Shown here: one piece after another, positions 42,658-42,684 of the stretch
Numbering within the stretch: the stretch's first letter is position 1
How the letters are laid out: each line of letters starts with the position of its first letter
NCBI RefSeq assembly: GCF_006345805.1
Contig: NC_043002.1
Location: 58,404,001 to 58,468,000 of the forward strand
Length of the DNA: 64,000 nt
From: Octopus sinensis
Taxonomy: Eukaryota
Direction: 5' to 3'
Program-made: the position numbers and the translations under genes
The notes under the pieces: model-generated
Database searches by the model: none
Told to the model about the DNA's origin: nothing
What the model saw: the letters and a program-made list of their open reading frames with translations, nothing else

Positions 42658-42684
42658 CAATTCATTCGTTTATTTCGCCTGGCC
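42658..42684 (-). CDS. lgl: candidate 27-nt Lgl microexon (W)ARRNKRMN
   Basis: tttttccag|GGCCAGGCGAAATAAACGAATGAATTG|gtatgt; phase 2-2, no stop in the frame of exons F and G. Confidence 0.6.

What the first reader, a model, noticed from the sequence alone, without database searches (positions are those of the whole stretch)
42658..42684. 27-nt basic microexon candidate directly after the aPKC-target polybasic domain
Seen: strong splice sites (tttttccag, TG|gtatgt), frame-preserving phase 2-2, several UGC motifs upstream, in the 17-kb intron between exons F and G; it adds W-ARRNKRMN. Known: Lgl binds membrane phosphoinositides through this basic segment and aPKC phosphorylation releases it; UGC motifs near the acceptor mark SRRM3/4-type neural microexons. 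Inferred: a tissue-specific switch adding four positive charges and no phospho-acceptor, tuning cortical retention.
Basis: partly seen in the sequence, partly recalled or inferred. Interest (0 to 1): 0.75.

Follow-up and report, generated by a model that had tools for sequence, protein, structure and literature searches.

The report
Basic microexon in cephalopod Lgl switch
A 27-base optional exon in the octopus cell-polarity gene Lgl, also present in a more distant, probably squid-like relative, adds four positive charges to the protein's membrane-gripping loop, which would likely make that form hold the cell membrane more tightly, possibly in nerve cells.

Summary
The exon is real. Window 42684-42658 (minus strand) is a 27-nt, phase 2-2 cassette exon of octopus Lgl. 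Its peptide WARRNKRMN is in 6 of 15 listed Octopus isoforms, O. bimaculoides included, and absent from 9. An unnamed relative, sister to the octopods (78% identity, probably squid or cuttlefish), has assembled transcripts with and without a 9-residue basic insert (RAKKNKDVI) at the same junction, so the exon is conserved. None of 11 other mollusc clusters shows it; 4 of 6 arthropod clusters have unrelated optional inserts in the same linker. The insert extends the aPKC-target polybasic segment from 16 to 20 K/R, upstream of the Par6-binding motif, and adds no S/T/Y. Four UGCs within 50 nt of a weak acceptor and an eMIC-domain exon in the genome fit Srrm234/eMIC neural control, but tissue specificity is untested: four unlabelled runs showed the skipped form. 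Tighter membrane holding is inferred. The exon is already in automated annotations, and my searches found no paper on it. It is a new member of a known kind; the closest analogue is NUMB exon 3.

The parts
42658..42684 (-). 27-nt cassette microexon of Lgl, phase 2-2; inclusion adds WARRNKRMN between K673 and C683 (P0006 numbering)
   Evidence: in 6 of 15 listed Octopus isoforms
42685..42784 (-). acceptor region: weak pyrimidine tract, TGC at -19, -33, -45, -48, -89, 68-nt AG-free zone, CTAA at -17/-87/-98, TTGAC at -103
42520..42657 (-). donor GTATGT and downstream intron: CU-rich run, ACTAAC at +34, TGCATG at +130 (QKI- and Rbfox-like labels are recalled; such motifs also lie below 3 and 2 of the 13 other donors, so they are not distinctive)
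47044..47176 (-). exon F (133 nt): aPKC-target serines S646/S650/S654/S661 and the polybasic segment, ending KKEK
29599..29792 (-). exon G (194 nt): acidic linker and the internal Par6-PDZ-binding motif ERQV (aligns with Lgl2 697-QRKI-700)
   Evidence: PMC12216845 passages
3866..61782 (-). part of the Lgl gene inside the window: 14 coding exons mapped, residues about 344-1093 of P0006; the gene continues beyond both ends

Best explanation
This is an alternatively spliced 27-nt microexon of cephalopod Lgl that lengthens the polybasic membrane-binding segment by four positive charges and no phosphorylation site, so the longer protein would likely bind plasma-membrane phosphoinositides more tightly and be released less fully by aPKC, and its inclusion is likely switched on in neurons by the Srrm234 eMIC splicing factor. 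Shown: the exon, its optional use, its conservation in a distant cephalopod, its position between the aPKC serines and the Par6-binding motif, the charge gain, the UGC cluster, and an eMIC-domain exon in the genome. From literature on fly and mammalian Lgl: the loop binds PIP2/PI4P electrostatically and aPKC phosphorylation neutralises it. Inferred: neural inclusion, eMIC dependence and stronger membrane retention.
For: (1) 6 of 15 listed Octopus isoforms carry the insert and 9 lack it; O. sinensis RefSeq X1, X2, X4, X5, X6 versus X3, and O. bimaculoides X1 (identical peptide) versus X2. (2) Four Logan-assembled full-length proteins of one relative, 99.8-100% identical, split 2 with and 2 without a 9-residue insert at the same site. 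The junction changes S to R...G, as a phase 2-2 insert predicts, and the insert occurs with both lengths of a downstream PE repeat, so it is not an allele. (3) That relative is sister to Octopus+Argonauta within a 100/100 clade. The inserts share A-[RK]-[RK]-N-K: BLOSUM62 score 15, reached by 40 of 6720 composition-keeping permutations and 12 of 6094 loop 8-mers from non-cephalopod Lgl. (4) K+R in the basic stretch rises from 16 to 20 in octopus and from 17 to 21 in the relative. With four Ser set to Glu in silico, the basic-hydrophobic area above 0.6 is 3.9 with the insert and 1.3 without (relative: 3.85 and 1.63; scale recalled from memory). (5) The insert maps to Lgl2 669/670, in the part of the 10-11 loop that touches neither aPKC nor Par6 (PMC12216845 passages). 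The loop's basic residues are needed for PIP2/PI4P binding (PMC4621827 passages). (6) There are 4 TGC in the last 50 nt of the intron, versus 0-1 at the 13 other acceptors; only this one of 65 YAG sites in the intron has 4 or more. A UGC near the 3' site marks eMIC targets. (7) An exon matching SRRM_C (PF15230, 32.5 bits, cut-off 27) is in this genome. (8) A low-confidence model makes residues 644-681, insert included, one helix (pLDDT 54-67 over 651-680). (9) Precedent: the 11-aa polybasic NUMB exon 3 confers PIP2 binding and membrane localisation.
Against: There are no tissue data. All 4 runs laid have the skipped form as their main contig, and none showed an inclusion junction in the rows listed. 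The TGC cluster lies in a (TTG)n-like tract of a kind common in this genome, and UGC is neither needed nor decisive. No CUAAY branch point or UCUC tract was found, and the 68-nt AG-free zone is exceeded by 4 of 13 other acceptors. The skipped form is already strongly basic (net +13) and stays above the membrane threshold after in-silico phosphomimicry, so four more charges may add little. The tryptophan is not conserved, and the relative's insert carries one Asp. The structure model is poor overall (mean pLDDT 53, pTM 0.37).
Confidence: 0.42

Rival explanations
1. The insert tunes the aPKC-Par6 reaction rather than lipid binding. It lengthens the tether from the last aPKC serine to the Par6-binding motif (49 to 58 residues) and puts basic residues near S661, which would change processive phosphorylation, perhaps speeding release.
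For: The loop's two ends bind the aPKC kinase domain and the Par6 PDZ, and that grip sets processivity (PMC12216845 passages). Linker lengths. In the relative, inclusion removes a junction serine. Insects carry unrelated, mostly acidic inserts in this linker, so length as well as charge may matter.
Against: The central loop is disordered and contacts neither partner. Its length varies widely among species (56 to over 100 residues from the SxKKS motif to the PDZ motif). The conserved feature of the insert is its basic residues.
Confidence: 0.2
2. The charge effect is the same, but the switch is not neural or not eMIC-driven: for example muscle, glia or a developmental stage, through QKI-, Rbfox-, CELF- or PTB-type factors.
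For: ACTAAC at +34, TGCATG at +130, a CU-rich run below the donor and a UG-rich run above the acceptor (factor assignments recalled). Tissue is unknown for every RNA record seen.
Against: These downstream motifs also occur at 3 and 2 of the 13 other donors, while the TGC cluster is unique to this exon. Its 27-nt length is close to the 31-nt median of fly eMIC exons.
Confidence: 0.2
3. The insert makes a short protein-binding or nuclear-import motif, as NUMB exon 3 also binds SNX9 and MDM2.
For: A-[RK]-[RK]-N-K is kept in order, not only in charge. NUMB exon 3 has both roles. The isolated mouse Lgl loop fused to GFP is also nuclear.
Against: Only 3 of 8 exon-coded residues are identical between the two inserts. 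The skipped loop already holds many basic clusters. No partner was identified.
Confidence: 0.1
4. A tolerated, near-neutral exon in a disordered loop.
For: The linker is highly variable and gains optional inserts independently in 4 of 6 arthropod clusters. The skipped form dominates the 4 runs laid.
Against: Length, phase and basic core are kept across the octopod and sister-lineage split. The peptide is identical in O. bimaculoides. In the relative, inclusion is assembled as a full-length form on 3 contigs and skipping on 5.
Confidence: 0.08

Closest known systems
Mammalian NUMB exon 3 (PTB insert)
   Same: A short (11 aa) polybasic alternative exon in a polarity protein that confers PIP2 binding and plasma-membrane localisation (bioRxiv 10.1101/2025.08.16.670648, passages). 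That NUMB is also an aPKC substrate is recalled.
   Different: It is an unrelated gene and exon. In NUMB the exon sits in a folded PTB domain and creates lipid binding; here it extends an existing polybasic switch in a disordered loop. Function is shown for NUMB and only inferred here.
eMIC (SRRM3/4, Srrm234)-dependent neural microexons
   Same: 27 nt, frame-keeping, weak 3' site, UGCs close to the AG, located in a disordered interaction region; an eMIC-domain exon is in the genome.
   Different: Neural inclusion and eMIC dependence are untested. No CUAAY branch point or UCUC tract was found. The flanking introns are long (4.4 and 12.9 kb), unlike the short ones of fly targets.
Lgl/LLGL polybasic (10-11 loop) phospho-switch of fly and mammals
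   Same: Orthologous protein (PF08366; E 2.8e-288 to the human LLGL2 chain), with conserved serines and PDZ-binding motif.
   Different: I found no description of an alternative exon that changes this loop's charge in the passages read or the searches made.
Optional inserts in the same Lgl linker of cricket, locust, cockroach and an ambrosia beetle
   Same: Isoforms with and without an insert between the polybasic segment and the PDZ-binding motif.
   Different: They are longer (18-31 aa), unrelated in sequence and acidic in three of the four, so probably of independent origin.
Tomosyn (STXBP5) splice variants in its variable loop
   Same: A paralogue family with alternative exons in a large loop of the second propeller (recalled).
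   Different: Not confirmed here: searches and the passages gave nothing on it. Recalled as long exons, not a basic microexon.

Membership tests
Lgl/LLGL orthologue | WD40 double propeller with LLGL domain | tested here: met
   PF08366, E 4.6e-42; full-length match to human LLGL2 and LLGL1 chains
Lgl/LLGL orthologue | polybasic 10-11 loop with aPKC serines and internal PDZ-binding motif | tested here: met
   S646/S650/S654/S661 and ERQV align with Lgl2 S645/S649/S653/S660 and 697-QRKI-700 (numbering by an offset of 11, checked against residues named)
Cassette microexon | 27 nt or less, AG/GT borders, frame kept | tested here: met
Cassette microexon | transcripts with and without the exon | tested here: met
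   6 versus 9 of 15 listed Octopus isoform models; 2 versus 2 assembled proteins in the relative; skipped form in octopus run contigs. No inclusion junction was seen directly in octopus reads.
eMIC/SRRM3/4-dependent neural microexon | UGC close to a weak 3' splice site | tested here: met
   4 TGC within 50 nt versus 0-1 at 13 other acceptors; lowest pyrimidine count of 14
eMIC/SRRM3/4-dependent neural microexon | long AG-free zone, UCUC-rich tract, strong CUAAY branch point | tested here: inconclusive
   68-nt AG-free zone (4 of 13 others are longer); CTAA and TTGAC only, no CUAAY or UCUC run
eMIC/SRRM3/4-dependent neural microexon | eMIC-domain regulator present in the genome | tested here: met
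   PF15230 over cut-off at G000:C11337, one exon ending at a GT donor; the rest of the gene was not traced
eMIC/SRRM3/4-dependent neural microexon | neural-specific inclusion | not testable with these tools
   runs are coded without tissue and kept as contigs; the annotation file of PMC9699675 was too large to read
eMIC/SRRM3/4-dependent neural microexon | inclusion depends on eMIC | not testable with these tools
   needs a minigene or knock-down

The most novel reading that the evidence does not exclude
Coleoid cephalopods evolved a neuron-specific microexon that gives Lgl a phosphorylation-proof extra membrane anchor, so splicing overrides the aPKC/Par release switch in neurons. With the independent acidic inserts of insects, the Lgl loop would be a charge dial that evolution has repeatedly put under splicing control, in opposite directions.
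Probability: 0.2. Interest if true: 0.7.

Novelty: new member of a known kind. Interest (0 to 1): 0.45.

Why it matters
Lgl's polybasic loop is the textbook electrostatic phospho-switch of cell polarity and of asymmetric division in neural stem cells. A natural splice variant that adds non-phosphorylatable charge, kept between octopuses and a distant cephalopod and not seen in other molluscs, offers a ready test of how charge sets cortical retention. It is also a candidate for the little-studied cephalopod neural microexon programme: searches for microexon with octopus or cephalopod returned 4 and 2 papers. The interest is tempered because the isoform already sits in automated annotations, the class of mechanism is known (NUMB exon 3, eMIC microexons), and tissue pattern and function are untested.

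Tried and rejected
Chance splice signals or annotation artefact: rejected, because assembled transcripts of a distant relative have both forms at the same junction. Allelic indel in the relative: rejected, because the insert occurs with both PE-repeat lengths and the only other differences are junction residues. Paralogue or duplicate copy: one match only for the exon region and for exon F. Direct view of the F-G and microexon-G junctions in reads: not obtained, since only 42350-47260 was laid. That output is dominated by repeats and lists only part of its joints (128 not shown) and pieces (9208 not shown). The bin holding most of the microexon had depth 0 in 3 of 4 runs and 2.2 in the fourth; contigs drop minor forms, so this is no evidence of absence. 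No RNA holder was on record as RNA (guessed labels only). A search for shorter proteins gave no further cephalopod insert among 120 hits, only two genomic exon-G read-throughs that place an intron at the same site in relatives. Argonauta: the one isoform held lacks the insert, which says nothing about its other isoforms. Downstream Rbfox- and QKI-like motifs are not enriched. The amphipathic role of W674 was dropped because W is not conserved. Literature: the 2019 eMIC paper that may list octopus microexons is not held. The supplements of PMC9699675 (annotation file unread, PDF not searched), of PMC8797185 (one table searched, no Lgl gene hit) and of the 2026 bioRxiv cross-species splicing study (not seen; main text has 0 'lgl') may list this exon. 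Earlier scan notes: nothing. The tomosyn parallel was not confirmed.

Full report
Observation. The window holds 14 mapped coding exons of an Lgl (LLGL) gene on the minus strand, in a 2.72-Gb genome whose exons match proteins named Octopus sinensis and O. vulgaris letter for letter. Exon F (47176-47044) ends in TG|gtagat, the candidate (42684-42658) lies between tttttccag and gtatgt, and exon G starts at 29792 after a 17,251-nt intron. Skipping reads K-C-E; inclusion reads K-WARRNKRMN-C-E. The donor is good, but the acceptor has 10 of 17 pyrimidines, the fewest of 14 acceptors of the gene. Signals alone are not proof: a strict filter finds 5 frame-keeping candidates at 3 acceptors in this intron and a loose one finds 23.

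It is a real alternative exon. Of 15 listed members of the 17-member Octopus cluster, 6 carry the insert and 9 do not: O. sinensis RefSeq X1, X2, X4, X5, X6 versus X3; 2 of 9 O. vulgaris models; O. bimaculoides X1, with an identical peptide, versus X2. These are gene models, and the O. vulgaris ones may not be independent of RefSeq. Exon models with and without the exon reproduce P0006/P0008 and P0007/P0010 exactly. In the 4 runs laid (of 24 listed, 19 holding the gene) a long contig ends its match exactly at the exon F donor. It runs on for 951 nt in two runs, which equals exons G-K without the microexon, and 1064 nt in one, which equals G-K plus M; inclusion would give 978 or 1091. The fourth runs on 29 nt, and depth over the microexon bin (2.2 against 12.5 expected) argues that it too is the skipped form. 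So skipping is seen in octopus transcripts. Inclusion in octopus rests on the annotations; I saw no inclusion junction in reads, and tissue is not given.

Conservation. An unnamed Logan cluster has four near-identical full-length proteins on 4.1-4.3-kb contigs. P0020 and P0138 (5 contigs) read KKEK-S-ETAES; P0139 and P0140 (3 contigs) read KKEK-RAKKNKDVI-G-ETAES. The S to R...G change is what a 27-nt phase 2-2 exon does to an AGY codon. The insert occurs with both lengths of a downstream PE repeat, so it is not an allele. Two genomic read-through ORFs begin at this same point after pyrimidine-rich codons, which fits an intron there (P0191, P0192). A tree of 22 rows places this lineage as sister to Octopus+Argonauta (100/100), at about 78% identity; squid or cuttlefish is my inference. 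The two inserts share A-[RK]-[RK]-N-K (score reached by 40 of 6720 permutations). A second unnamed relative (P0021, P0022) and the single Argonauta protein show only the skipped form. No within-species loop variation appeared among listed members of 11 non-cephalopod mollusc clusters (three large clusters were listed only in part: Mytilus 15 of 28, oyster 15 of 41, and among insects Schistocerca 15 of 28). Four of 6 arthropod clusters have unrelated optional inserts in the same linker: acidic 23-31 aa in Gryllus, Schistocerca and Periplaneta, and basic 18 aa in Euwallacea.

Where it sits. Aligned to human Lgl2, octopus S646/S650/S654/S661 match the aPKC-target serines, ERQV matches the internal PDZ-binding motif 697-QRKI-700, and the insert falls at 669/670. 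In the aPKC-Par6-Lgl2 structure paper, residues 627-654 bind the kinase, 696-710 bind Par6 and 655-695 are disordered and free (PMC12216845, passages). The loop's Lys/Arg residues are needed for plasma-membrane targeting through PIP2 and PI4P, and phosphorylation neutralises them (PMC4621827, passages). The insert raises K+R from 16 to 20 (net +13 to +17), lies 13 residues past the last serine and has no S/T/Y. On a basic-hydrophobic scale recalled from memory, the area above threshold rises from 5.9 to 8.9, and with four phosphomimic changes from 1.3 to 3.9; the relative behaves alike. A low-confidence fold (mean pLDDT 53) draws 644-681 as one helix that includes the insert; I give this little weight.

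Likely regulation. There are 4 TGC in the 50 nt before the acceptor, against 0-1 at the 13 other acceptors; it is the only one of 65 YAG sites in the intron with 4 or more. eMIC targets have weak 3' sites and nearby UGCs, and in non-vertebrates the eMIC domain is made neurally from Srrm234 (PMC8797185, section 10 and passages; bioRxiv 2024.09.17.613571, section 10 and passages). An exon for that domain is in this genome. Against this: no CUAAY or UCUC tract, an unremarkable AG-free zone, a UG-repeat context, and UGC is not strictly required or diagnostic. I put neural eMIC control at about 0.55-0.6.

Mechanism. Most likely (0.42 for the whole statement) the exon adds charge that aPKC cannot neutralise, giving an Lgl form that is held more firmly at the cortex, probably in neurons. 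Rivals: changed aPKC-Par6 kinetics through a longer, more basic tether (0.2); the same effect in a non-neural tissue (0.2); a binding or import motif (0.1); near neutrality (0.08).

Novelty. The isoform is in public automated annotation. Searches for microexon+octopus, microexon+cephalopod, llgl+microexon, Lgl+polybasic+alternative splicing, Lgl+isoform+exon+aPKC+neuron and octopus tissue-specific exons showed no paper on it. I saw listings for these and passages of PMC9554796, PMC9699675 and the 2026 cross-species splicing preprint (no 'lgl' in its main text). The 2019 eMIC paper was not held, and unseen supplements may list the exon. The nearest working analogue is NUMB exon 3, an 11-aa polybasic exon that gives PIP2 binding (passages). 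Verdict: a real, cephalopod-conserved microexon in a well-known switch; a new member of a known kind; interest 0.45.

Noticed in passing
window 17578-17417 (minus strand): A second cassette exon (162 nt, acidic) in the Lgl tail, with a tandem CAGCAG acceptor. It is also optional in the distant relative, where the microexon-bearing proteins lack it and the microexon-less ones of that species have it. The coupling is not strict: run X3 and P0021/P0022 lack both.
   Followed up: partly
window 30432-30388 (minus strand): A frame-keeping 45-nt stretch with ttttttag and gtaagt borders in the same intron that would add another basic peptide. It is in none of the 15 listed isoforms and is A-rich, so probably chance.
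   Followed up: partly
P0084/P0100, P0103/P0342, P0109/P0339, P0112/P0367: Independent optional inserts in the same Lgl linker in cricket, locust and cockroach (acidic) and in an ambrosia beetle (basic).
   Followed up: partly
L003:1489-1645 (G000:C11337): An exon encoding part of an SRRM_C/eMIC domain on a small scaffold, ending at a GT donor inside the domain.
   Followed up: partly
window 47044-47176: Octopod Lgl reads RRISF where most other protostome hits read RRKSF or RRKSL, which loses one basic residue before the first aPKC serine. One substitution at 47136 is seen in 3 of 4 runs.
   Followed up: no
window 3978-3866 and L002:2915-2847: Alternative C-terminal ends: some isoforms stop or switch exon after the Thr-rich exon M.
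   Followed up: no
window 44150-44970, 42940-43000, 46610-46700: Short high-copy repeats in the intron draw very large contig depth in the runs laid.
   Followed up: no
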